A stretch of 57,841 bases of DNA. Source: a virus. Its lineage: Duplodnaviria > Caudoviricetes. The notes beneath the pieces were generated by a model. That model did not search any database. It was not told the DNA's origin and was given only the letters and a program-made list of their open reading frames with translations. The stretch's first letter is position 1. Every line of letters begins with the position of its first letter. This document shows positions 14,619-56,914 of this stretch, one piece after another. The stretch is from positions 1 to 57,841 of the IMG/VR virus record IMGVR_UViG_3300023213_000324; one strand, 5' to 3'. The position numbers and the translations under genes are program-made.

Positions 14619-15173
14619 ATGAGGATAGGCCAACTAGTCGAACAAGAGAAGTTTCGTACTGGTTGTTTTCATGTTGAAGCTGCTGTTGACAAGAAAAACA
14701 CCGGAACAACTAAAAAAGCTGCGTCTGCCAAACAGGCAGGCTCTAATAACGGCGTAAGGAACGCGCCAGGAGCCGGTTTGCCAAAAGGCAAGCCGCCTAT
14801 CTCCTCAAATCATCAGAAGCTGCATGGAATGGCTAGAACTCACGGTTTCAAGCATGTAGGTATGTCGGTTTATCAACATCCTTCTGCTGGTTTGACGCTT
14901 TCTGTAGGGCCACAGGGTTGGTCGCTTTCTGATGGTAGTTCAGGGGCTGATTGGCAGGACTTGCAGGCTCATCTGGAGAAGTCATTCGGTCTGCCGATGC
15001 AAGATCCGAACGCAGTTGATCCGAATACCGGTATGTCTATGAATCAGATGCAGCAGCCACAGCAGCAAAAGAAGCCTGGACAGAGCCAGTCGGGCTTTGG
15101 TGGTGGAAATGGTATGCAAGGGCCCAAGCAGAAGAATCCGAATCCGTTCCAGCAGTCTTTCATGGGGCATTAG
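14619..15173 (+). CDS. Low-complexity G/Q/P-rich hypothetical protein
   Basis: AAGGAG RBS; 184 aa. Confidence 0.65.
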   Translation: MRIGQLVEQEKFRTGCFHVEAAVDKKNTGTTKKAASAKQAGSNNGVRNAPGAGLPKGKPPISSNHQKLHGMARTHGFKHVGMSVYQHPSAGLTLSVGPQGWSLSDGSSGADWQDLQAHLEKSFGLPMQDPNAVDPNTGMSMNQMQQPQQQKKPGQSQSGFGGGNGMQGPKQKNPNPFQQSFMGH

Positions 15174-42940: not shown

Positions 42941-43230
42941 CCATTGTTTGTAGTTTGTGCGAGCGTCCGATAATGAGGAATCGGTATCAGGGCTTCTCAA
43001 CTGCTGTACATTCCAGATGCGATAAATTGTATAATGATGGTATGACGCCTGAAGAGATTCAAACTCTTATGGCCAAAGAGGAAAGTCAGGAAGAAGTAGT
43101 GAGAAAAGTTGTTGATGATTTGGGTTCTGGTATGTTTAGAGCTTCGGGTATGAAAAAGAAAGTGAAAGAAGTAATGGAGGCGATTCGTGAACGAGTTACA
43201 AGAAAACGTCGAAACATCCTTAAAGATTAG
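42871..43230 (+). CDS. Hypothetical protein
   Basis: 119 aa; GAGGGGG RBS. Confidence 0.6.
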   Translation: MAFTDNPSFYRPGGRALNSDGSITIVCSLCERPIMRNRYQGFSTAVHSRCDKLYNDGMTPEEIQTLMAKEESQEEVVRKVVDDLGSGMFRASGMKKKVKEVMEAIRERVTRKRRNILKD

Positions 43231-44824: not shown

Positions 44825-47743
44825 ATGGCTACAGCCCCTGCGGGCTTTGTAAGCAAAACGAAGACGCTAAACAAACCAGACCCAGTATTGTGCCGAGAGC
44901 AGTTGGAAGCTCTTAACATACTCTGGAAAGCCTGGGGCCCTGAAGTCTTTTGTCGATTTTTTGTTAGTATCCTTCTAAAGAAACCTGTCCAGAGAACTAT
45001 TTCCGGAAAAATCGTAAATACCAGACTTGTTCCGTATACGTACCACCGTATCAACAAAGATATGGAGAAGACGTTTACGAAGCGGAATATCACTCTGAAG
45101 CCTCGTCAGATTGGCGCTACGACGTACCACATCATCCGTCGTTTGTATCTGCCAACAATACTCGAGATGGGGACTTCGTCGTTGTTGATTTCTCAGACGA
45201 AGTCTTACGGCTTGCAACATTTCGCTATTCTGTCGCGTGCCCATAAACATTTCATGCAGCATCTGCCGATGGGCATGTCTCATCTGAACGATATCGCTGA
45301 AGAGCTTCATAGGAATTTGTTACACACTCAGTATTCTCCACGACATGAGCTGGTGTTTGATTTTCTCGATAGTCGGATACTTGTCGATTGTCTTGGTCCA
45401 AATACTTTTGTACAGATGGGTGATGGTGAGTTGAAGAAAATATGTGAAGTTAAAGTAGGAGATTGGGTGTCGTCTTCTAAGGGCTACAAGACGAGAGTTA
45501 GTTGGGTTGGTTCGAAAGATGCTGAAGACCATCAATATAAAGGTCAGGCTTATAGAGTAGAAGTTAGACATCACACAGGTTTTGATGTAATTTGTAGTCC
45601 AAATCATAAGTTCTTGACTCAGCGAGGTTTGGTTAAGGCTAAAGATTTGTTAGTCGAAAAAGATTTTTTGGCTATACCCAAGAAGAAGTTTACTGGAATT
45701 GTTAAGTGTTTAAAATTAAATCAGCTACAACGTTTGCCTGGAAGTGGTAGTGGTTCTCAGCCAGTTAGGGTGAAAGAAGACTTTGAGCTTAATAGAGAAA
45801 CTGGTTTTGCTTGTGGTTTGTATTTGGCAGAAGGAACAATGAATGCGAATAGACCAATTGGTTTTGGATTTTGTCTAGCTGGAGAAAGTGAGATTGCCTT
45901 GTTTAAGAGGGCAGCTAAAGCATTTCGACCTTATCTGGTTGGTGTGAAAACTTATAGATATCATCGTGGGCCAAAGAAGATAATTTTCAGCTGTACTGGA
46001 AAGGTGTTTACTGAGTGGTTAAAACAGAATATTGGTTGCAAAAAAAACAAACATGTTCCTGACTGGATATGGGATTCGCCAAAAGATTTTGCTATCGGGT
46101 TTCTTGAAGGATGGCTTTGCGGAGATGGGGGAGTTGGTTGTAGAGGAAGAAGCGTAACAGGAGTTTCTATTCTTTCTCGTGTAGCAGTAGTTATGAGAGA
46201 TGTGGCTATAGCTCTTGGTCTTGGTGGAATCGGATTACTTTATCAGAAGTTAAGGCGCAGAGAAGTAGTTATGCCTGACGGACATATTGCTCGTATGTAT
46301 CCGAATAGGTTTGAAGTTAGAATAATTGGCGTTTCGATGGATAGGTTGATGTCGCTTGTAGGTGGTAAGAGGCTTAGTGGAAAGTATAGTTATAAGTCTT
46401 ATGTCTCTAAAAAGAAAGTTCAACCATCGCCAAAATATTGGTTTGAAGATGAACAGTTTGTTTATTTTAGGTTGAAATCAGTTTCGAAAACTTTTTGTAA
46501 GAAGTTTTGGGATTTGACGGTAGAGAACCCAGAACATTTGTACAGATTGCCATTTGCTGTAACGCACAATACTTCCGAGAATCCTGAGGTGGGTCAAGGG
46601 TTACCGGGTATTAGCCATCTTGTCTGTACGGAGATGTCGAGGTGGAAAGTCGGGCCACTCCATAGTCCTGAAGAGGCTATGGCCAACGTGAAAGAATCTG
46701 TTCACAGTGAAGGTACAGTTGACATTGAATGTACGGCTAATGGTATGGGTGGTTATTTCTTTGAAGAGTGGCAGAGAGCCAAAAACGGTGGCGAGTTCGT
46801 ACCGCATTTTTACCAGTGGTGGTTCATGGAGGAGTATGAAGAGCGAAATACGAAGCTGACCTATTCCGAGCTTGATGATAGAGAGAAAGAGTTAGTCAAG
46901 CAAGCCAATCTGACTTTGGGCCAATTGTCATGGCGAAGAGGAAAGGTAATCTCACTACGTCATAATTTTCCTGAAAAATATCCCGAGGATGACATGCTGT
47001 GCTTTTTGACGACAGGGTCTGGTTTCTTTGAGAGAGATATTTTGGCTAGAAAGAAACTGGAACTGATGAACCAGAAGCCTATTGAAGTTCATGGTAATGG
47101 TGATTATGTTGTTTACAAGCGCAGAGTGAAGGGCAGAAGGTATGTAATCGGTGCTGATTGTTGTGAAGGTAAAGAAGTATCAGAAGGTAATTCTGACTTT
47201 AATGCTGCAGTTGTTCTTGATGAAGAGACTGGTGAAGAGATGGCTGCCTATCGTTCAAAACTTCCACCTGAAGATTACGGTGTAGAGTTGGTTGATATAG
47301 CTAGAGAGTACAACAATGCCTTGCTTGGTATTGAGAGAAACAATCATGGTGGAACGGTGCTGTTGGTAGTTCAAAGGCAATGTATGTACGGGAACATTTA
47401 CTATCACAAGGAATGGTTCAGGGAGAGAAAGCAGGTAGTTGAAGTTGCTGGGTTCCCCACAAACCAACGTACACGACCAATCGCTCTGAATAAATGTGCC
47501 GCATGGGTCAGAGACGTTCCTGAGCTGATTCACGATACTACGTTTGTTGATGAAGCACTTGTTTTTGTGCGTGATAAGAAAACCGGGAAGCCACAAGCAC
47601 AAGCTGGCTGCCATGATGATACTGTAATGGCGAGGGCTGTGGCAACTTACATTCGTCTTGTAAAGTTGGGTTATCTCGACCCCATCGAATCCCCATCTGA
47701 AAAGTATGGTGAAACTGAGGCCGAAGAAGATAAGGCTGCCTAG
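44825..47743 (+). CDS. terL: Terminase large subunit containing an intein
   Basis: LKPRQIGATT Walker A, ECTANG motif III, IGAD...D.NA RNase H-like domain, ERNNHG, HDDTVMA. Confidence 0.93.
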   Translation: MATAPAGFVSKTKTLNKPDPVLCREQLEALNILWKAWGPEVFCRFFVSILLKKPVQRTISGKIVNTRLVPYTYHRINKDMEKTFTKRNITLKPRQIGATTYHIIRRLYLPTILEMGTSSLLISQTKSYGLQHFAILSRAHKHFMQHLPMGMSHLNDIAEELHRNLLHTQYSPRHELVFDFLDSRILVDCLGPNTFVQMGDGELKKICEVKVGDWVSSSKGYKTRVSWVGSKDAEDHQYKGQAYRVEVRHHTGFDVICSPNHKFLTQRGLVKAKDLLVEKDFLAIPKKKFTGIVKCLKLNQLQRLPGSGSGSQPVRVKEDFELNRETGFACGLYLAEGTMNANRPIGFGFCLAGESEIALFKRAAKAFRPYLVGVKTYRYHRGPKKIIFSCTGKVFTEWLKQNIGCKKNKHVPDWIWDSPKDFAIGFLEGWLCGDGGVGCRGRSVTGVSILSRVAVVMRDVAIALGLGGIGLLYQKLRRREVVMPDGHIARMYPNRFEVRIIGVSMDRLMSLVGGKRLSGKYSYKSYVSKKKVQPSPKYWFEDEQFVYFRLKSVSKTFCKKFWDLTVENPEHLYRLPFAVTHNTSENPEVGQGLPGISHLVCTEMSRWKVGPLHSPEEAMANVKESVHSEGTVDIECTANGMGGYFFEEWQRAKNGGEFVPHFYQWWFMEEYEERNTKLTYSELDDREKELVKQANLTLGQLSWRRGKVISLRHNFPEKYPEDDMLCFLTTGSGFFERDILARKKLELMNQKPIEVHGNGDYVVYKRRVKGRRYVIGADCCEGKEVSEGNSDFNAAVVLDEETGEEMAAYRSKLPPEDYGVELVDIAREYNNALLGIERNNHGGTVLLVVQRQCMYGNIYYHKEWFRERKQVVEVAGFPTNQRTRPIALNKCAAWVRDVPELIHDTTFVDEALVFVRDKKTGKPQAQAGCHDDTVMARAVATYIRLVKLGYLDPIESPSEKYGETEAEEDKAA
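45389..46570 (+). mobile_element. Intein with LAGLIDADG homing endonuclease in TerL (394 aa)
   Basis: N-junction LVD|CLGPNT; CSPNHKF; GLYLAEG and GWLCGDG; C-junction WDLTV...VTHN|T. Confidence 0.92.
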
Positions 47744-47756
47744 CTGAAAATAGTAC

Positions 47757-47803
47757 TTGACATGAAAATAGGTTTAACCTATAATTATTCGTGTACGGGA
47801 TAC
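47757..47803 (+). promoter_or_regulatory. Consensus sigma70 promoter P1 with TGTACGGGATAC leader
   Basis: TTGACA 47757-62, 17 nt, TATAAT 47780-85. Confidence 0.85.
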
Positions 47804-47883
47804 CGCCTTTAGTAGTTAGAGTAGGCTGTTATTGGTATCCCATAGGGCTGCTCCAAAACGGGCAGCCCTATATCCTTTAAAAG

Positions 47884-48075
47884 GAAAGGAAAATAGACCG
47901 ATGGAAAAAGTATTTTGTGACATATGCAGTAAAGAAATGAAGGATAGAAATACGGTTGAAGTCTACGATGCCGAGAAAGATGATATGTCTTTGGCCTTTG
48001 ATGTTTGTAAACCTTGTGAGAACAAAGTTGTTAAGGCATTGAATGCTTTGAAAAAATCTGTAAAGTAGGAAGGAC
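47884..48075 (+). repeat. 192-bp exact repeat, copy 2
   Basis: Identical to 20804-20995. Confidence 0.95.
47901..48068 (+). CDS. Small Zn-finger protein, copy 2
   Basis: Identical to 20821-20988. Confidence 0.75.
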   Translation: MEKVFCDICSKEMKDRNTVEVYDAEKDDMSLAFDVCKPCENKVVKALNALKKSVK

Positions 48076-48142
48076 GAAAAGTAGTTAAGTAGTTGGGTCA
48101 GTTCAATAGAACGAAAAATTTTGAAAAGAGAGGTAGCGAACG

Positions 48143-49156
48143 ATGTCGAATGAGAAAGAAGTGAAGAATCTAATCGATCCTGAGGCTTTGCCAATCGTCA
48201 GTTCTGGAACGCCGACAGTACAACACAAAGAAGATTTTGAAACTATCGCTCATAACGCTGGTGTGGGTATCGGCGGAGATGATTTGTATGAGCGTTACGG
48301 GAAGTTGGTTTATCTTTTTGACAACAGCGGGTCGATGGACAGCCGGATGCCGATGTCTGATAGTCCATCTTTGTATGAGTGGGATGCAGAGCTTTTGAAA
48401 AAGTTCCGTAAAGCCATGCAAGAGTATCTTGAAGCACAGAAAGATTGTGATGTTGATGAAGGAGAAGAAGATGAGTTCGATGACGTGCTTGATGCCGAGC
48501 CGCTCTTTGACTCCATTCCTTTTGACGATGAAGAACTCAAGCGTCTGATTGTTGATGCTGACCTTGCCGATGAGTTCAAAATCAAACTGCCGAAAACGTA
48601 TAACCCTTACGGCAGTTCCGGTAAGTCGAAGATTCAAGCTGTAAAAGATGCGGCTAGGGGGTTTGTCGAGAATCGATTCGAAAAGTATCCTGATGCCAAT
48701 GTCATGGTTTTTGGTTTTGCCGAATCCGCTTCTGTTTTTGCTCGAGGTGCTGGCAAAGAAGAAGTTCTGAACGGTGTTGAAAGTCTTGATGCTCAGGGCG
48801 GTAATACCAGAATCTTTACTGCCATGAGAACAGTGATTGGTGAGTTCAAGAAACGTCCGTCACAAGTTCGATGCCATCATGTTGTTTTGGTGACTGATGG
48901 GTTCGATAACGATTCAGATCTCATGACGGGTCATCTGTCAAATTTGCAAGAACTGGGAATCGTTGTTGATTTCATCTTTGTAAAGGGGCATGACGATTCA
49001 CAAGACGACAATCGTCTCTACAAAGAAAAGATTGACGCCATCAGGTTGGTTTGCGAAAAGACAGGCGGTGAGTATACCGAAGTCAATACCGTTGATGACT
49101 TCGAAACAAAGTTCCTTGCTGTTTCCAATCGACCAATGCTTCCTTGGAAGGGCTAG
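48143..49156 (+). CDS. von Willebrand factor A domain protein
   Basis: MIDAS DNSGSM...GGNT...LVTDG. Confidence 0.85.
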   Translation: MSNEKEVKNLIDPEALPIVSSGTPTVQHKEDFETIAHNAGVGIGGDDLYERYGKLVYLFDNSGSMDSRMPMSDSPSLYEWDAELLKKFRKAMQEYLEAQKDCDVDEGEEDEFDDVLDAEPLFDSIPFDDEELKRLIVDADLADEFKIKLPKTYNPYGSSGKSKIQAVKDAARGFVENRFEKYPDANVMVFGFAESASVFARGAGKEEVLNGVESLDAQGGNTRIFTAMRTVIGEFKKRPSQVRCHHVVLVTDGFDNDSDLMTGHLSNLQELGIVVDFIFVKGHDDSQDDNRLYKEKIDAIRLVCEKTGGEYTEVNTVDDFETKFLAVSNRPMLPWKG

Positions 49157-49160
49157 TTAG

Positions 49161-49171
49161 TTTTGTATAAT
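49161..49171 (+). promoter_or_regulatory. TTTTGTATAAT promoter-like motif
   Basis: Recurrent motif; upstream of small ORF and array 3. Confidence 0.55.
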
Positions 49172-49185
49172 AAGAGAGACTAGCT

Positions 49186-49384
49186 ATGACGCATACTTTC
49201 AAGAAGGGCGAACAGGTTCTGTGGCGGGAGTGGATTGGTGTAGTCCACTCCCTTAGACCTACAAAGGTGTATGTGTTGTTCTACGGTGGATGATGGCCGA
49301 ACTGTTACAGGAGGCCATTGGCACAAGCCGGAAGAACTTCTAAAGATGGAGGATTTGAAGAAGTACTTCCAATATGCCAATTAG
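49186..49384 (+). pseudogene. Small SH3/Tudor-like ORF apparently split by a 1-nt frameshift
   Basis: MTHTFKKGEQVLWREWIGVV...VLFY then +1 frame VDDGRTVTGGHWHKPEELLK...YAN*. Confidence 0.4.
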
Positions 49385-49584
49385 AGATTCGGCGCATGTG
49401 TGATGTATCGTTGGTGGTAGAAAGATTTGCTGATTTCGTTTGTTTCGTGTCAAGAGAAAGATTTGTGCTTTATGTTTGTTTCGTGTTATAAGAAAGATTC
49501 GTAGACTACGATTAAATGTCGCAACATGTGAAAGATTTGCGCATGCAGTGTTGTACCGAAAAACTTGTAAGACTGTGGAGGTAG
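49383..49584 (+). ncRNA. TIGR-like dual-repeat guide array 3 (~5 units)
   Basis: gtatcg-ttggtggtag-aaagatttg-ctgatttcg-tttgtttcg-tgtcaagag-aaagatttg-tgctttatg-tttgtttcg-tgttataag-aaagattcg-tagactacg; exact 36-nt period in the centre. Confidence 0.85.
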
Positions 49585-49587
49585 CAA

Positions 49588-50700
49588 ATGGCTAGAAGAA
49601 ATAGAACGTCGGCGCCACCAATCCCTAAACCGCCGAAGCCTCAGCGGCCACAAGGCAAGGCTTTACGGGAGCTGTATAAAGGTTTGGTGACGTTGTCTAC
49701 TTCAAATCGCATCAATTCTTTGGCTTCTGCATTGCAGTGGTTCGATTCTGCACAGGTGTGGATGTTGTCTAGAAACAAGGGCCAGCCTCTCGATCCGAAA
49801 ATCGTCAGAGCCATAGAAATTGCTGTAAAGAGTAGAAAGGTCGGGATATCAGCAACTATGGAGGGAGAGAAGGAAACCGCTTTCTTGATGTCCGTACGGA
49901 ACTATGAGAAAGCTTGTAGTATAGTCAAACCTGTTTCAGTAGACAAGTATTATACTGAGCTTGAAGCGAAGAAACAGAAACTCGAACAGCGCCAACAAGT
50001 TGCTGCGAATCAGTACGGAAACCTTTTATCTGAACTGGCTGTTGCTGGCGGTGGCGAAGTACGGATGCTTGTTTTCGATGGGCCCAAGACACGCCAGCTG
50101 GTGCCATCTTCGTTTGAGATTATCTACAATCGTGAAGGCGCCAAACAAGTTGTGGAAACGATAAAGCGTCAGGGTATGCTTTCTGCTTTCGTTGCCGAGC
50201 TCGATATGATGTCTCGTTGCTTGGCTTTCGAATCGAACGGTGTTGGTGGCTTTCAAGTCAACGCTGAGAAGTATATCGCTGCGCAGAGTCGTTTGATGAA
50301 GAACTTCGTCAAACATTATGGAACCATGCCGAACGCCAACCGTTTGGTACGGCCTGGCGCTACGGCTGAACATGGTTTAATACAACAGCCTCAGCCGGCA
50401 TCTACCCAGCCTAAGGCTCCTCGGCAGGGAGCGCCACAGCGGACGCCTATTCGTCGTAGTAGTGCTCCTAAAGTGGCTGGAAGGTATGATGCCGCCTCCA
50501 CTATGGCATTGCTTTACAATAAGCTGAGAGACGGGCATCTCCACAAAATAACCGATATCCTGCAGGGAGTTCCTGCTGCTGACCCAAAGGGTCGTTTGGT
50601 CAATCTCGGGAAAGATGTCAAGCGATTCAATTGGGGTACTTTCGAGTGGTTGGGTGACGGTGTGAGAATGATACTGACACAAGAACAGGCGGCTGTATGA
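49588..50700 (+). CDS. Hypothetical protein with C-terminal putative winged-helix-like domain
   Basis: GGAGG RBS; C-terminus similar to a domain in 56090-56914. Confidence 0.75.
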   Translation: MARRNRTSAPPIPKPPKPQRPQGKALRELYKGLVTLSTSNRINSLASALQWFDSAQVWMLSRNKGQPLDPKIVRAIEIAVKSRKVGISATMEGEKETAFLMSVRNYEKACSIVKPVSVDKYYTELEAKKQKLEQRQQVAANQYGNLLSELAVAGGGEVRMLVFDGPKTRQLVPSSFEIIYNREGAKQVVETIKRQGMLSAFVAELDMMSRCLAFESNGVGGFQVNAEKYIAAQSRLMKNFVKHYGTMPNANRLVRPGATAEHGLIQQPQPASTQPKAPRQGAPQRTPIRRSSAPKVAGRYDAASTMALLYNKLRDGHLHKITDILQGVPAADPKGRLVNLGKDVKRFNWGTFEWLGDGVRMILTQEQAAV

Positions 50701-50957
50701 GTCTCAGACTTTTCAGGTTGTCAAATAAAGCCCGCATGGGTTGTTGGGTGTTTGCTGAGAATGAAGAAGAAGCTAGAGAAATTTTCAAACTCGATGGGCG
50801 GGTTAAGTCTCTAGCAAACATAACTTTTGTACAAGATCAGACTGACTTTTACACACCCACCACAAATCTTTCTGAAGTGACCGAGAAGGGTCCTGCTTGC
50901 ATGAGGATTCCGGGACGTATTTGGGAAGTTTCTTCTCTCTGGAGAAGGGCTGTATGA
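50697..50957 (+). CDS. Hypothetical protein
   Basis: ATGA overlap; VFAENEEEARE motif. Confidence 0.65.
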   Translation: MSLRLFRLSNKARMGCWVFAENEEEAREIFKLDGRVKSLANITFVQDQTDFYTPTTNLSEVTEKGPACMRIPGRIWEVSSLWRRAV

Positions 50958-51169
50958 GCCAAGTAGCCGAAAGCAAACTGTGCCTTGAGACAGGGAAGCA
51001 TCGTCACAAATCTAGGGTTGCAGCACAAGCCCATCTACGTTCTGCGGTGGAACAAAATATTTTGGAAGGTGTAGTTGTTGATAGAGTCGTTTATTCCTGT
51101 AAGTATTGCCTTGGTTGGCATATCGGACGACAGAAGAAAAGTGCTCATAAAAACAAATATCGAGTTTGA
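50954..51169 (+). CDS. Small Zn-binding phage protein
   Basis: C..GKHRH...VYSCKYCLGWHIG. Confidence 0.7.
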   Translation: MSQVAESKLCLETGKHRHKSRVAAQAHLRSAVEQNILEGVVVDRVVYSCKYCLGWHIGRQKKSAHKNKYRV

Positions 51170-51172
51170 TTT

Positions 51173-51272
51173 TGTACGGGATGGGATGACCTAACACACG
51201 GGGAGTTGCTACCTCGCCCTTGTGGACAAGAGATTAGCATCTTTCGTTCTCTCTAGTCTCTTGGTCATCCCT
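51173..51272 (+). ncRNA. Structured leader upstream of the TasA-like gene
   Basis: GGGATGACC/GGTCATCCC closing stem enclosing two hairpins; starts with TGTACGGGAT. Confidence 0.5.
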
Positions 51273-51326
51273 AGAAATTCGGAGAACGTGGGCCAAGTAA
51301 AAATTGAACGAAGGAGATGATAGTAA

Positions 51327-52265
51327 ATGAGAAGCACTACAGTTGCACCGGTTGAAGGTTTCGATCCGGTAAGTAAGTTGACAGCTGACATCAAGAAAGC
51401 GGCTATTACCTTGACCGACAAGGAAGCAAGATTTCTTGTCGACGGGTATTACTCGTTGCAAGGGTACAGAGTCGCATCAGGGAACCAGATTATCGCTCTG
51501 AGGAAATCAAACGAACCGAATGCTGTGTTGCGTTGGTTCAATGAAAACGCCGAGACTCTTGAAATGCAGATGAGGCGTGCTCTTGACGCTTACTCCGAAA
51601 CGAAAGTAGTCGGTCGTTGGTCAAAGTCCATTTGTGGAATAGGGCCAGTGATTTCTGCCGGCTTGCTTGCGCATATTGATATGTATCCTTGGCGTTGTCA
51701 GGTAGCAAAACTCGATCCGAAAGAAGACGCTTGTTCAGAGAAGAAGCCTCACGAAAAAATGGGTTGTGGTAAGCAACCCATTGCAACTGCCGGCCAGATT
51801 TGGCGATTTGCCGGTCTTGATCCTACTGATGTTTGGAACAAGGGTGAGAAACGGCCTTGGAATGCCGCCCTCAAAACTCTCTGTTGGAAGCTGGGAGAGT
51901 CGTTTGTAAAAGTCCACAACAATCCAAATGACTTTTACGGAAAATTGTATACCGCTCGTAAAGAGTGGGAGACTGAGAAGAACAAACGTAAGGAGTATGC
52001 CCACCTAGCTGCTGACAAACTGGCAAAGTTCAAAATCGGAAAGAAGACTGAAGCGTACAAAGCCTATATCGAAGGGTTTCTTCCTGATGGTAGAATCCAT
52101 GAGCGTGCCAAACGATACGCCGTGAAGATTTTTCTATCTCACTGGTTCACGGTTGCCTATGAATCGACTTTCAACAAGCCGGCTCCGACGCCATATGTCA
52201 TTGCCTATCAGGGGCATACGCATATGATTCAAGTCCCGAACTGGCCGATGGTTGAGGAGAAGTAG
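51327..52265 (+). CDS. TasA-like Nop-domain protein (IS110 C-terminal-like, no nuclease domain)
   Basis: RFLVDGYYSLQGYRVASGNQI coil; ICGIGPVISAGLLAHID; TAGQIWRFAGLDP; RPWNAALKTLCW; HERAKRYAVKIFLSH; no DEDD RuvC or HNH; dual-repeat array directly downstream. Confidence 0.8.
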   Translation: MRSTTVAPVEGFDPVSKLTADIKKAAITLTDKEARFLVDGYYSLQGYRVASGNQIIALRKSNEPNAVLRWFNENAETLEMQMRRALDAYSETKVVGRWSKSICGIGPVISAGLLAHIDMYPWRCQVAKLDPKEDACSEKKPHEKMGCGKQPIATAGQIWRFAGLDPTDVWNKGEKRPWNAALKTLCWKLGESFVKVHNNPNDFYGKLYTARKEWETEKNKRKEYAHLAADKLAKFKIGKKTEAYKAYIEGFLPDGRIHERAKRYAVKIFLSHWFTVAYESTFNKPAPTPYVIAYQGHTHMIQVPNWPMVEEK

Positions 52266-52269
52266 AAAA

Positions 52270-52397
52270 CATCATTCGGACGATGTGTGAGTACCGGATA
52301 GTAGAAGTGAATTGTTACTAGGGACTTTGTATCGTTGACATAGAATGAGTTGCAGTTTCAGTTAGTTTCGTTGAAATGGAATGAACAGAGAGGCTAG
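52270..52397 (+). ncRNA. TIGR-like dual-repeat guide array 4 (~3.5 units), adjacent to the TasA-like gene
   Basis: gtaccg-gatagtaga-agtgaattg-ttactaggg-actttgtatcg-ttgacatag-aatgagttg-cagtttcag-ttagtttcg-ttgaaatgg-aatgaacag-agaggctag. Confidence 0.8.
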
Positions 52398-53255
52398 ATG
52401 AAAAGAGCCTTATTCAAGTGCTGTAATCTGATAGGAGACGCTCTGTTTGCGTCCCCTATTCTCCAGCAGTGGCACGAGAAGAATCCTGATTTCGAAATAG
52501 ATCTCTTGACGCTACCTGATCACGTTGCTGAAGTGTATAGACATTTTGGTGTTCCTTTGAACGTATTGTTTGACGCTGACAGTTCAAAGTATGACTTCTA
52601 TCACAATTTCGACATCGGGAAAGCATTTAGCTTGGGTGATGCTAAGAAGCTTCATGCTGTAGAGGCTGTAGGACAGATTCTGTTTGGCCCGGATTACATC
52701 GCTCCAACGTTGAAGCCAATCTTCATTCCCGATGAGGAAGAGCATGAGAAAGATTTGATTCTCATTAGCCCGTTTTCTAGGAGTTGTTCTTCGAACCAGA
52801 AAGATAGCTTAGGTAGGAGTAATCCACCTAACAAAATGATTCAGTGGCCACACTGGCTACAGATAGTAACTCTGCTTAGAGCTTATGGGTCGATTGGTGT
52901 TTTGGGTGGAAAAGATGACCACTGTCCTTTGCCTATCGCCGAAGACGAGTACTATCTGAATCTATCGTTAAATCATGTAGCCTTGTTGCTACGCGATTGT
53001 AGGATGTTTGTTACCATCGATAACGGTATGGCCCATTTAGCTTCGTCTCAGACGACGCCAACGATAGAATTCTATCCTGCCTGCTTGGCGGTTAGGTGGG
53101 CTGCACCGTTGGGCAATCCAAATCTGTACATAGCTCAAGTAGATCCAGCAAACATTTCCGTACCGCAGGCACTCTATGTTGTTAGAAGTGGAATTGAAGC
53201 TTTATTTTTGAGGAGGAAGAAAGATGAAAAAATCTGGCAAGAAGAAGTCCGCTAA
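52398..53255 (+). CDS. GT9-like glycosyltransferase
   Basis: LIGDALFASP; FVTIDNGMAHLAS. Confidence 0.85.
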   Translation: MKRALFKCCNLIGDALFASPILQQWHEKNPDFEIDLLTLPDHVAEVYRHFGVPLNVLFDADSSKYDFYHNFDIGKAFSLGDAKKLHAVEAVGQILFGPDYIAPTLKPIFIPDEEEHEKDLILISPFSRSCSSNQKDSLGRSNPPNKMIQWPHWLQIVTLLRAYGSIGVLGGKDDHCPLPIAEDEYYLNLSLNHVALLLRDCRMFVTIDNGMAHLASSQTTPTIEFYPACLAVRWAAPLGNPNLYIAQVDPANISVPQALYVVRSGIEALFLRRKKDEKIWQEEVR

Positions 53256-53751
53256 AGTGTCGTCTAGAAAAGCGTCAAAACAGAAACAGTCTTCGACGAA
53301 GTTTGCTCAGGTTGGTAGTCCAAAAGAGGTAAAACAAAAAGGTGGCTATCTGGTTCAGATTGAGAACACAACACGTGATGTAAATGGTATTGTGACTTCG
53401 TCTGAGTTTGTCCAATATGTTGGTTCGAAGAGACAGCCGTTGACTTTACAGAAGGCAGAAAATGTACGTGATGGTTTGAAGGCTATAGGTAGTGGTGGTC
53501 GCATACTAAATGTTCCTGAAATGACGGAACATGAGAAGTGGGAATCTCTTGCGACACTGGAAGCCGCTAGTAAAGCTGAGAATATGAGCCAAAACAAGGC
53601 TACTGAGTCAGTCGAGCCTGGCTCCCAAACCCCCCCCCCTCTACGGAGCCGGCCCAACCCCTTAGCCAAGAAAAAAGTACTTGACATCAAAATAGGGGTA
53701 TCCTATAATTATTGCTGTACGGGATACTGCCAATCTAGGGTTCCTGTATAG
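53224..53751 (+). CDS. Basic hypothetical protein (3' end uncertain, runs through promoter P2)
   Basis: GAGGAGG RBS; K/S-rich N-terminus. Confidence 0.55.
   Translation: MKKSGKKKSAKVSSRKASKQKQSSTKFAQVGSPKEVKQKGGYLVQIENTTRDVNGIVTSSEFVQYVGSKRQPLTLQKAENVRDGLKAIGSGGRILNVPEMTEHEKWESLATLEAASKAENMSQNKATESVEPGSQTPPPLRSRPNPLAKKKVLDIKIGVSYNYCCTGYCQSRVPV
53681..53727 (+). promoter_or_regulatory. Consensus sigma70 promoter P2 with TGTACGGGATAC leader
   Basis: TTGACA 53681-86, 17 nt, TATAAT 53704-09; near-identical to P1. Confidence 0.85.
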
Positions 53752-54604: not shown

Positions 54605-54819
54605 TGCCTATGTCAAAAAAGCTTGCAGCTGCTGTTGCTGAAATACTTGTTCAAGAGGTTGGTCGCGAGAAAGCCGAGAAACTCATGGATAGACTAGTCG
54701 ACCTAGTCATCATAGAGAAGGCTCCACATTCGCCAAAACAGTCTGTGATAGCCATCAGGAACTACGTTCTATTGTACCTAGCCAGTAGCTTTAAGAAAGG
54801 AGCAGCCGGTGGCAACTAG
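54601..54819 (+). CDS. Hypothetical protein
   Basis: GTGA overlap. Confidence 0.6.
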   Translation: MMPMSKKLAAAVAEILVQEVGREKAEKLMDRLVDLVIIEKAPHSPKQSVIAIRNYVLLYLASSFKKGAAGGN

Positions 54820-55729
54820 TTTCCAGATTGCTTACAGGGTTCTGGAGACAGACCTTATCAAACAGACTGACAAGGAGAGGGCGGCTTCGGTCGCCCTCAT
54901 GGTTACAAACGATGATGATGCCAAGAAACTGGCAGGCCATGAGTACTTTGGCTACAAACACATCGATATGATTAATGGTCGGGCTGGAGTCATTACCTAT
55001 CGCGGCGCAGAGATTGTACTTCTGTTCAAGCGGAAGGTAATGGAATTATCGGTAGGCCCGTCTGATCCTGTACCATCGTGTGAGATAAAAGATCCTAACG
55101 ATGTCTGGGTTAGGGTCAATCTTCTCGATCCGAAGGTTCCTTACTTCCAGCGTTCTGAATTAAGCAAAGCGCATCAAGAAGCTGACAGACTTCGTATGCT
55201 TTTGAAAGCCGCAAGAGTGGACTTGAGTGAATCGGCGACGACAGTAAACACTGCTAGGGTTCAGCGAGATGAAGTATCGAAGTTGAATGCCAGGATTAAG
55301 AATCTTGAAAACTCGCTGGAAGCTTATGGGAAAGACTTGGAGGCTGCCAACAACAAAATCCAAACAATTCGACAAGAGAACGAAAATAAAAACGTACAGC
55401 TTGTTCAGGAAGTTCTCCCAAGCTACGACACGGTCAGGATGGCTCTTGAAATAGATCCTGAAAACAAACTCATGCGTGCTTTGAGTAAACAGCTTCAAGC
55501 TATGGTTCGTAGTTATGACTGCGATGTCATTGAGCCGATGCTTTGGACGAAGTTCGATCATAGTCTTCACAACGCTGTACATGGCTACCCTATCAAAGTA
55601 GGTGACCCACGGATAGGTCAGATTGTGAAACTCTCCACCGTTGGTTTGCGAAAAGGTAATCGAGTCATCAAAGCTGCAAATGTCGCTGTTGCTGTTGAAG
55701 AAACATTAGAAGGAGGTAGCGCGTCGTGA
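54809..55729 (+). CDS. GrpE-like nucleotide exchange factor domain protein
   Basis: Coiled coil then EVLPSYDTVRMAL...FDHSLHNAV...GLRKGNRVIKAANVAV. Confidence 0.8.
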   Translation: MATSFQIAYRVLETDLIKQTDKERAASVALMVTNDDDAKKLAGHEYFGYKHIDMINGRAGVITYRGAEIVLLFKRKVMELSVGPSDPVPSCEIKDPNDVWVRVNLLDPKVPYFQRSELSKAHQEADRLRMLLKAARVDLSESATTVNTARVQRDEVSKLNARIKNLENSLEAYGKDLEAANNKIQTIRQENENKNVQLVQEVLPSYDTVRMALEIDPENKLMRALSKQLQAMVRSYDCDVIEPMLWTKFDHSLHNAVHGYPIKVGDPRIGQIVKLSTVGLRKGNRVIKAANVAVAVEETLEGGSAS

Positions 55730-56109: not shown

Positions 56110-56914
56110 AGAAAGAGAGAAGCTGAAGCAGGAAGGCTTGTACGTAAAAGAGAAATGTGACAGTTGTGGCAAACCAATTCTGACGCCTATGAAGGCTGTG
56201 AAGGATGGCAAAGATCTTTGTACGGGATTGGGTAGTTGCTACGAACAGATGAAAGCGTCGGGCCAATGGAAAGTTGGGATTCCTAGGAAACAAAAATCAA
56301 ATCAGGAGGAAGCTGGAAGTATGGCTACTACTAAGAAAGAAAGCAGTGGTTCTGGTGGTGCTGAAAAAGTTGGAGGACACTATCGTAAAGGTTCAACGCT
56401 AGCGAACTTTTACGAAGTGCTTTCTGACGAGAAGAAGCATTCCGTCAAGCAGATTCTGAAAACTGCCGGCAAGGACGCCAAGAATCCAATGTTCCTGCTC
56501 AAGGCTTTGAAGAAAGATGGTGAGAAGAAATTCAAAGAGTGGGGCATCGCTATCAACGATGATGAGGTTCAGATGAAGATGGGAAAGTCGGCCGCCGCAG
56601 CTGCTGCCAAGGCTCCGGCCAAGCCTTCCCCCTCCACACCCTCAGCTGGCCAAAAGAATGCGCCAAAACAGCCGCCAGCCACTGCCAAAACAGGCTCTAA
56701 ACAGGCCCCCCAGCCGGTTAGCAAGAGCCTGGCCGCTGTTGTCTCCCTGCTCCGCAAGACCTTGAAGTCGGCCGGCACTTGGACCAAAAACAAGCTGGTC
56801 GAAGAGCTGAAGACGAAAGCTGGTATCGATCAGAAAGAAACGCTGACTGCCTTGAGCCGTGAAATCAATCTTGGCGGAATTATCCAGAAGAAAGGAGTAT
56901 TCTCTCTGGCCTAA
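56090..56914 (+). CDS. Basic K/A/P-rich putative DNA-binding protein with N-terminal Zn finger
   Basis: CDSCGK...C....C; AAAAAAKAPAKP linker; two helical domains. Confidence 0.7.
   Translation: MSLLSHEEREKLKQEGLYVKEKCDSCGKPILTPMKAVKDGKDLCTGLGSCYEQMKASGQWKVGIPRKQKSNQEEAGSMATTKKESSGSGGAEKVGGHYRKGSTLANFYEVLSDEKKHSVKQILKTAGKDAKNPMFLLKALKKDGEKKFKEWGIAINDDEVQMKMGKSAAAAAAKAPAKPSPSTPSAGQKNAPKQPPATAKTGSKQAPQPVSKSLAAVVSLLRKTLKSAGTWTKNKLVEELKTKAGIDQKETLTALSREINLGGIIQKKGVFSLA

What the first reader, a model, noticed from the sequence alone, without database searches (positions are those of the whole stretch)
47754..53695. Guides appear aimed at sigma70 -35 boxes, including the phage's own two strong promoters
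Seen: revcomp(TGTCAAGAG)=CTCTTGACA contains TTGACA, and a third spacer (52335-52343) reads TTGACATAG. Joining revcomp(A)+B gives CTCTTGACATCAATTTCG, which matches P2 53678-53695 TACTTGACATCAAAATAG at 13/18 with 11 contiguous across the A/B junction. The other guide gives CTCTTGACATGCTTTATG, matching P1 47754-47771 TACTTGACATGAAAATAG at 10/18 with 9 contiguous. The B halves start TCAA vs TG, exactly as P2 and P1 differ. Inference: a nuclease-dead RNA-guided repressor of early promoters (own, host or competing phage), like natural CRISPRi. Caveats: matches are partial, and this joining geometry may not be the canonical TIGR one.
Basis: partly seen in the sequence, partly recalled or inferred. 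Interest (0 to 1): 0.85.

Follow-up and report, generated by a model that had tools for sequence, protein, structure and literature searches.

The report
Phage TIGR-TasA guides, promoter match unsupported
This phage carries a nuclease-free RNA-guided DNA binder (TIGR-TasA) with three guide arrays, and although three guides contain the bacterial promoter word TTGACA, they do not form a valid match to the phage's own two strong promoters.

Summary
The sequence facts hold. Three spacers carry TTGACA or TGTCAA (2608, 49448, 52335). P1 and P2 are the only perfect TTGACA-N17-TATAAT promoters in the genome.

The locus is a TIGR-TasA system. tasA lies at 51327-52265 and has no nuclease domain; its fold is closest to solved TasH and TasR. 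There are three dual-repeat arrays, at 2430-2892, 49383-49577 and 52269-52388.

The promoter reading fails on geometry. He also used the orientation rc(first)+second. Published cleavage and cryo-EM data imply the target reads spacer A followed by rc(spacer B), and guides with reverse-complemented spacers were inactive.

In that geometry the three guides match P1/P2 at only 9-11 of 16 positions. Across 148 guide-by-geometry tests nothing survives correction. No geometry finds a full target in this genome or in the closest relative's contig.

TTGACA is over-represented among the 40 spacers here (3 against 0.11 expected). One such spacer recurs in the relative whose Tas is 75% identical. Family-wide enrichment is marginal. 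The true targets are probably in another genome.

The parts
51327..52265 (+). tasA: 312-aa TIGR-associated protein with coiled coil plus Nop-like domain and no nuclease domain
   Evidence: phmmer against PDB: TasR 9mty E=5.7e-12, aligned from query 45 to chain 125; TasH E=0.004. AF2 pLDDT 87.4, N-terminus helices only. Foldseek top 9 chains are all TasH/TasR, followed by IS110-family recombinases. No Pfam hit. 5653 homologs, some carrying PF02371. Y290 nearly invariant and H297 invariant in 23 homologs.
2430..2892 (+). TIGR array 0: 12 units with edge GAAWGATTYG-type and loop TTTGTWTCG-type repeats; periods 36-41 nt
   Evidence: Holds the spacers TGTCAAGA (2608-2615, unit 0.5, second spacer) and TCAATTTC (2627-2634, unit 0.6, first spacer).
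49383..49577 (+). TIGR array 1: 5 units, the last two degenerate
   Evidence: Unit 1.2 has first spacer CTGATTTC (49430-49437) and second spacer TGTCAAGA (49448-49455).
52269..52388 (+). TIGR array 2: 3 units, starting 4 nt after the tasA stop codon
   Evidence: Unit 2.2 has second spacer TTGACATA (52335-52342). The homologous position in L081 holds an array of about 8 units.
47754..47785 (+). P1: consensus sigma-70-type promoter (TTGACA 47757-47762, 17 nt, TATAAT 47780-47785)
   Evidence: 12 of 12 consensus positions
53678..53709 (+). P2: second copy of the same promoter (TTGACA 53681-53686, TATAAT 53704-53709)
49588..51169 (+). Three ORFs of unknown function between array 1 and tasA (370, 86 and 90 aa)
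   Evidence: no Pfam family. The 370-aa ORF has a 371-aa counterpart in the same position in L081.
52398..53255 (+). Glycosyltransferase family 9-like gene directly after array 2; the same arrangement is seen in L081

Best explanation
The region between the two consensus promoters holds a TIGR-TasA system. tasA encodes a Nop-domain protein without a nuclease. Three dual-repeat arrays of 10-nt repeats and 8-nt spacers are probably cut into roughly 36-nt tigRNAs. By homology with solved TasR, TasH and TasA complexes, a TasA dimer loaded with one tigRNA should unwind a 16-bp site and pair the first spacer with one strand and the second spacer with the other. One strand of that target reads spacer A followed by the reverse complement of spacer B. 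The complex should then sit there without cutting and block transcription or replication. This mechanism is inferred, not shown here.

The apparent aim at the phage's own promoters P1 and P2 comes from three spacers that contain the -35 hexamer, plus a join that does not correspond to one guide or to the known target geometry. P1 and P2 are not full targets. No full target exists in this genome, so the targets most likely lie in another genome, either the host or competing mobile elements.
For: TasA identity rests. Array anatomy and the edge/loop assignment rest.

The canonical geometry comes from the literature. PMC12045711 section 7 reports opposite strands, a cut at the 5th spacer base, 8-nt 3' overhangs, inactive reverse-complemented spacers, active swapped spacers and tolerance of only 1-2 bp gaps. 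PMC13421893 passages give strand numbering in which the strand displaced over spacer B continues 3' from the flanking duplex. 10.64898/2026.08.11.744272 section 5 places the first paired tigRNA base at each outer unwinding junction, in a TasA as well.

In the own-genome search, the mean best match is 13.5-13.6 of 18 in all four geometries, and shuffled guides mostly give 13-14. Canonical joins of the three TTGACA guides score 9-11 of 16 on P1/P2. In the promoter-window test nothing survives 148 tests. Repression by TasA when targeted has been shown experimentally elsewhere.
Against: The hexamer pair is over-represented among the 40 spacers: 3 against 0.11-0.14 expected, with Poisson P(3 or more) of 2e-4 to 5e-4 and P(2 or more) of 0.005-0.009. 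All three sit in units with an exact 36-nt period, and only 6 of 20 units have that.

The single best promoter hit of all 148 tests is unit 1.2 on P1, at 13 of 16 with p=0.0009 uncorrected. That hit is in a same-strand join that no Tas structure supports.

The geometry was worked out from prose in papers, not from figures, and from TasR, TasH and a stem-loop TasA, not from this clade. tigRNA ends were not observed. The mismatch tolerance of TasA binding, as opposed to cleavage, is not known to me.
Confidence: 0.7

Rival explanations
1. TasA loaded with these guides binds the -35 boxes of the phage's own P1 and P2 and represses them, as autoregulation or an early-to-late switch. This would work through a non-canonical pairing geometry or through half-site (8-nt) recognition.
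For: His joins score 13/18 (11 contiguous) and 10/18 (9 contiguous), and each scores higher against the promoter he assigned it than against the other. tasA and arrays 1 and 2 lie between P1 and P2, so feedback would make sense. The second spacers pair with 7 of 8 positions at the -35 box of both promoters, on either strand.
Against: The join crosses an edge repeat. Its orientation is the one for which reverse-complemented spacers were inactive in TasR, and tigRNAs with a single spacer did not guide cleavage. It gives p=0.029 for one pair and more than 0.1 for the other, before correction for 148 tests. The best matches in that geometry lie elsewhere in the genome.
Confidence: 0.07
2. The three TTGACA guides are aimed, in the canonical geometry, at promoter -35 regions of another genome, either host sigma-70 promoters or a competing phage. 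Units 0.5 and 1.2 would cover about -45 to -30. Unit 2.2 would cover about -35 to -20. Either position would block sigma region 4 binding.
For: The hexamer is enriched in this genome's spacers. The 8-mers equal or extend the consensus (TCTTGACA as the reverse complement, TTGACAT directly), and the hexamer sits at the 5' end of the second spacer in all three.

The 75% relative L081 carries CTGTCAAG as a second spacer, flanked by first spacers resembling those here, although the repeat between them has diverged. Its canonical join and that of unit 1.2 agree at 12 of 15 positions when slid by one; that count was made by hand.

TasA represses when targeted. No target lies in the phage's own genome.
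Against: The host is unknown and no target was found. A 7-of-8 match between some L081 spacer and some window spacer is expected by chance: the null is 6% per spacer, and there are 17 spacers. Family-wide enrichment is marginal: 7 against 2.8 expected among 1787 unique spacers from 85 arrays, and two of the seven are homologous. An unparsed count gave 8 against 7.8 and 13 against 7.8. A motif scan of 131 loci (1.67 Mb) found only three sites outside the window's arrays, about chance level.
Confidence: 0.2
3. The TTGACA content is chance plus duplication of one spacer-and-edge block between arrays 0 and 1. The arrays are partly decayed, with irregular periods and degenerate repeats, so many units may no longer guide anything.
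For: Two of the three hits are the same 8-mer followed by the same edge sequence. With random genome 8-mers, some hexamer pair reaches 3 in 12% of 5000 trials; with 9-mers the figure is 24%. 14 of 20 units deviate from 36 nt. There is no family-wide signal.
Against: For the TTGACA pair specifically, 2 or more occurs in 0.7-1.1% of trials. The three hits are in the regular 36-nt units. There is a related spacer in L081.
Confidence: 0.3

Closest known systems
TIGR-TasA systems with dual-repeat arrays (Faure et al. 2025, PMC12045711; FpTasA named there)
   Same: Nop-domain protein without a nuclease. Arrays of two alternating short repeats with short spacers at about 36-nt period, placed up- and downstream of tas. 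Encoded by a phage. Shares the fold of TasR and TasH.
   Different: Repeats end in YG instead of the CCA reported for TasR arrays and seen in most relatives fetched here. Three short arrays, one of them about 48 kb away from tasA along the record. Irregular unit lengths.
MbTasA and catalytically dead TasR as RNA-guided transcriptional repressors (Xu et al. 2026 preprint, 10.64898/2026.09.09.750476)
   Same: A nuclease-free Tas. Repression by steric block is the most likely activity here too.
   Different: Those experiments used designed guides on reporters and on cysG in E. coli, with stem-loop tigRNAs. The authors state that natural targets cannot yet be determined. Here nothing about activity was measured.
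Natural CRISPR-based repression without cleavage (type IV and V-M systems are cited in PMC12045711 section 10; Cas9 autoregulation by long tracrRNA is recalled, not checked)
   Same: An RNA-guided binder that silences rather than cuts.
   Different: Those guides pair fully with one strand and use a PAM. Here the guide is split over both strands, and no matching promoter was found.
IS110-family bridge-RNA recombinases and box C/D snoRNPs
   Same: Related RNA-binding fold (Foldseek ranks 10-13; PF02371 in some homologs) and split-guide logic.
   Different: No DEDD/RuvC-like catalytic domain, no transposon ends and no methyltransferase partner seen here.

Membership tests
TIGR-Tas | Tas protein with the coiled-coil plus Nop-like RNA-binding fold of TasR/TasH | tested here: met
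   phmmer to 9mty (TaTasR, identity of the entry confirmed) E=5.7e-12 and to TasH E=0.004. AF2 pLDDT 87.4. Foldseek E=2e-7 to 7e-6 for 9 TasH/TasR chains, TM 0.47-0.70.
TIGR-Tas | Array of two alternating short repeats (edge, loop) separated by short spacers with period about 36 nt, next to tas | tested here: met
   20 units in 3 arrays. Array 2 starts 4 nt after the tasA stop. The period is exactly 36 in 6 units and 37-41 in 14.
TIGR-Tas | Edge and loop repeats share their first and last bases (box D / box C covariation) | tested here: met
   By my segmentation 20 of 20 edges and 17 of 20 loops end in CG or TG, and the base after each 8-nt spacer is mostly G. The motif differs from the published UG...CCA. 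Relatives show GAG...CCA or ...CCG.
TIGR-Tas | Processing into about 36-nt tigRNAs bound by Tas | not testable with these tools
   No sequencing run was listed for this DNA. Indirect only: Y290 and H297 are conserved, spaced 7 apart as are the Y289/H296 processing residues named for SpTasH. Their equivalence was not aligned.
TasA subtype (no nuclease) | Absence of an N-terminal HNH or RuvC domain | tested here: met
   312 aa. The alignment to TasR starts at chain residue 125. Model residues 14-91 are three long helices. No Pfam nuclease family.
   Canonical joins score 9-11 of 16 on P1/P2. Best canonical p=0.027 uncorrected, for unit 0.1.
   Needs EMSA, ChIP or reporter assays.

The most novel reading that the evidence does not exclude
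A phage TasA whose best-formed guides carry the extended -35 consensus at the junction-proximal 5' end of the second spacer would be a natural promoter-silencing device. It would park a nuclease-free RNA-guided dimer on -35 regions of host or rival-phage sigma-70 promoters. That would be the first natural target class for TIGR systems. A second open reading concerns two units whose two spacers are contiguous in the phage's own genes. They may record how TIGR spacer pairs are born, from one contiguous stretch of DNA split by a loop repeat.
Probability: 0.15. Interest if true: 0.8.

Novelty: new member of a known kind. Interest (0 to 1): 0.33.

Why it matters
The natural targets and biological role of TIGR-Tas systems are open questions. 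Both the 2025 discovery paper (section 10) and the 2026 repression preprint (section 13) say that natural targets cannot yet be determined. My two literature searches listed no paper reporting natural promoter targets. A complete 57.8-kb phage genome with a TasA, 20 guides and clearly readable promoters is a good test case.

The result here is mostly negative. The guides do not target the phage's own promoters, any other site in its genome, or the closest relative's 10.6-kb contig. This argues against self-regulation and for foreign targets. The -35-like spacers remain a testable lead once a host is known.

Tried and rejected
Own-genome targets. All 20 units were searched in four joining geometries, plus 17 cross-edge pairs, with 8- and 9-nt spacers and gaps of 0-2 nt. 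Nothing rose above the shuffled null.

Targeting of the closest relative's alleles. A 12-nt contiguous hit of unit 1.2's canonical join in the L081 371-aa ORF looked promising. However, 13 of 16 is reached by 18% of shuffled guides on L081 (273 of 1500, counting 13 or more). No geometry was enriched in either direction. Rejected.

Family-wide -35 enrichment. Unparsed variable hexamers gave 8 against 7.8 and 13 against 7.8. Parsed spacers gave 7 against 2.8 among 1787 spacers (one search was an earlier, smaller parse of 1023 spacers). This is marginal. All hits are in registers 1-2 of the spacer, which is not significant on 7.

Same-strand loop-removed joins. Two exact hits, of 16 and 14 nt, occur in the window. 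There is no excess in the 20-kb flanks of related loci. Left as unexplained.

TTGACA in the arrays as real promoters. No acceptable -10 lies at 16-18 nt on either strand; this was read by eye, and the scan lists none there.

Searches that gave nothing. tblastn of TasA against phage records found no match. A single-protein scan of viral contigs found no relative, and the alignment then worked. Rfam gave no family in the window. For sequencing runs, none was listed and no RNA holder was listed. The host could not be named. The terminase has only distant relatives, under 33% identity. The Tas relatives in prokaryote genomes come from many phyla, and the nearest ones are mostly Acidobacteriota MAGs at about 50% identity.

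Literature limits. Supplementary files and figures were not seen. Fig. 4A, fig. S7 and table S1 of PMC12045711, and the TIGRSafari resource, may already list this locus or show the geometry directly. I derived the geometry from prose.

Full report
What is in the sequence.

The window is a complete virus record of 57,841 bp with 44.6% G+C. P1 (47754-47785) and P2 (53678-53709) are near-identical consensus promoters. They are the only two TTGACA-N15-19-TATAAT sites on either strand, against 0.05 expected.

Between them lie, all on the + strand:
- a small zinc-ribbon-like ORF and a VWA-domain gene
- a short ORF, then a repeat array at 49383-49577
- three ORFs without a family
- a 312-aa gene at 51327-52265
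- a second array at 52269-52388
- a GT9-like gene and a 175-aa ORF

A third and largest array of 12 units lies at 2430-2892.

The protein.

The 312-aa product has 5653 homologs in the large protein collection, and some carry PF02371, the IS110 C-terminal domain. Against PDB sequences it matches 9MTY with E=5.7e-12, aligned from chain residue 125 onward, and TasH with E=0.004. 9MTY is the TaTasR-tigRNA-DNA complex of Faure et al. (confirmed).

An AlphaFold2 model from 23 homologs has mean pLDDT 87.4, with three long N-terminal helices and no extra domain. Foldseek against the PDB returns nine TasH/TasR chains first (E 2e-7 to 7e-6), then IS110-family recombinases. It is therefore a TasA, the nuclease-free type.

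The arrays.

All three arrays alternate a GAAWGATTYG-type repeat with a TTTGTWTCG-type repeat. Relatives fetched from viral contigs (Tas 45-54% identical) and a metagenome contig, L081 (75% identical), show the regular form of this family: two 10-nt repeats, 8-nt spacers and a period of 36. So the spacers here are 8 nt long, and the ninth base, mostly G, belongs to the next repeat.

Every array here begins and ends with the first repeat type. In L081 that repeat overlaps the tas stop codon. By the published definition it is therefore the edge repeat, and a guide consists of the spacer after an edge (A), the loop, and the spacer after the loop (B).

Only 6 of 20 units have an exact 36-nt period.

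Checking the observation.

His joins score 13/18 with 11 contiguous on P2, and 10/18 with 9 contiguous on P1.

Both TGTCAAGA spacers and TTGACATA are B spacers, of units 0.5, 1.2 and 2.2.

Target geometry.

I read sections 4-8, 10 and the figure legends of PMC12045711. I read passages of PMC13421893 and sections 5-6 of the preprint 10.64898/2026.08.11.744272. The two spacers pair with opposite strands of adjacent half-sites.

Several lines fix the order of the halves:
- The cut at the fifth spacer base leaves 8-nt 3' overhangs. This is possible only if one strand reads 5'-A then rc(B)-3'.
- The TasH strand numbering agrees with that order.
- In TasA, the first paired guide base sits at each outer unwinding junction.
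- tigRNAs with reverse-complemented spacers were inactive.
- Swapped spacers worked, and only 1-2 bp gaps were tolerated.

This conclusion does not depend on which repeat is the edge.

Tests.

In the canonical geometry the three TTGACA guides match P1/P2 at 9-11 of 16 positions.

Over the whole genome, the best 18-mer matches average 13.5-13.6 in each of four geometries. Shuffled guides mostly give 13-14.

A test restricted to promoter windows covered 80 within-unit and 68 cross-edge guide-by-geometry combinations. Three reached p<0.01 and eleven reached p<0.05. The overall best, p=0.0009, was unit 1.2 on P1 in a same-strand join. None survives correction.

Window guides against L081, and L081 guides against the window, show no enrichment in any geometry.

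Is the -35 word in the spacers meaningful?

Within this genome, probably yes. The TTGACA/TGTCAA pair is the most frequent hexamer pair among the 40 spacers, with 3 against 0.11-0.14 expected. Random genome words reach 2 or more for this pair in 0.7-1.1% of 5000 trials. Two of the three are one duplicated spacer, though.

All three sit in regular 36-nt units, with the hexamer at spacer positions 1-6.

L081 has CTGTCAAG as a B spacer, flanked by A spacers that resemble those here. Taken alone, a 7-of-8 match between the two spacer sets is expected by chance.

Across 85 parsed arrays and 1787 unique spacers, the pair occurs 7 times against 2.8 expected, which is marginal.

So a lead remains that these guides are aimed at -35 regions of some other genome. 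In the canonical geometry units 0.5 and 1.2 would cover roughly -45 to -30, and unit 2.2 roughly -35 to -20. I found no such target and cannot name the host.

Comparison with what is known.

TIGR-Tas was described in 2025. TasA and dead TasR were shown to repress transcription with designed guides in a September 2026 preprint, of which I read sections 5, 12 and 13. That preprint reports 20,096 tas loci and says natural targets cannot yet be determined.

This locus is a new member of that known kind, with divergent repeat ends and three scattered, irregular arrays.

The idea of a nuclease-free RNA-guided repressor is therefore no longer new. The specific claim of self-promoter targeting is not supported.

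Unexplained.

Two array-0 units have their spacers contiguous, with the loop removed, in + strand ORFs of the same genome. Unit 0.7 has a 16-nt exact match at 43015-43030, and unit 0.11 a 14-nt exact match at 14950-14963.

The null rates are 9 of 3000 and 6 of 1520 for 14 nt or more, and 1 of 3000 and 0 of 1520 for 16 nt or more.

This is not a known target geometry, and it does not recur in the flanks of relatives.

Limits.

No expression data were listed. Figures and supplements of the papers were not seen.

Noticed in passing
window 2663-2693 vs 43015-43040; 2818-2845 vs 14950-14963: Spacer A directly followed by spacer B (loop removed) of units 0.7 and 0.11 occurs as 16-nt and 14-nt exact stretches inside + strand ORFs of the same genome. 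For 0.7 the next edge bases AATGAT also recur 2 nt further on. Null rates are 0.3-0.4% for 14 nt or more and at most 0.03% for 16 nt or more, per guide. This could be a trace of spacer origin, or chance.
   Followed up: partly
window 2885-3361 (+): The ORF that starts inside the last edge repeat of array 0 has a GerE/LuxR helix-turn-helix (E=6e-17). It also matches sigma-70 region 4, the part of sigma that reads -35 boxes (E=1.3e-6).
   Followed up: no
window 47793, 51174, 53717, 56220 (+): GTACGGGAT occurs four times on the + strand. Two copies start 7 nt after the -10 boxes of P1 and P2, one lies about 150 nt upstream of tasA, and one lies at 56220. It may be a shared transcript leader. There is no Rfam match.
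   Followed up: no
window 2385, 27751, 43028, 49164 (+): TGTATAAT occurs four times, all on the + strand. One site is 45 nt before array 0, one precedes the short ORF and array 1, and one sits at the own-genome copy of unit 0.7. These may be -10-type promoters for the arrays.
   Followed up: no
window 2430-2892, 49383-49577, 52269-52388: Only 6 of 20 units have the exact 36-nt period (0.4, 0.5, 1.2, 1.3, 2.2, 2.3), and the rest are 37-41 nt. The preprint read describes a fixed 36-nt length for self-processing dual-repeat systems, so many units may be poorly processed.
   Followed up: partly
window 44825-47743 (+): Large terminase subunit of 972 aa with an intein-like insert. Pfam Intein_splicing is below its cut-off. 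The terminase matches cover only residues 583-960.
   Followed up: no
window 53630-53639: A run of ten C inside ORF 53224-53751, about 40 nt before P2. It could be a slippage-prone tract or an assembly weak point.
   Followed up: no
window 54809-55729 (+): A phage ORF with a GrpE nucleotide-exchange-factor domain (E=9e-12).
   Followed up: no
L081 9167-9490: The closest relative keeps all of its roughly 8 units directly after tas, and its first edge repeat overlaps the tas stop codon. It has no array at the position of window array 1. So arrays have moved or been duplicated within this lineage.
   Followed up: partly
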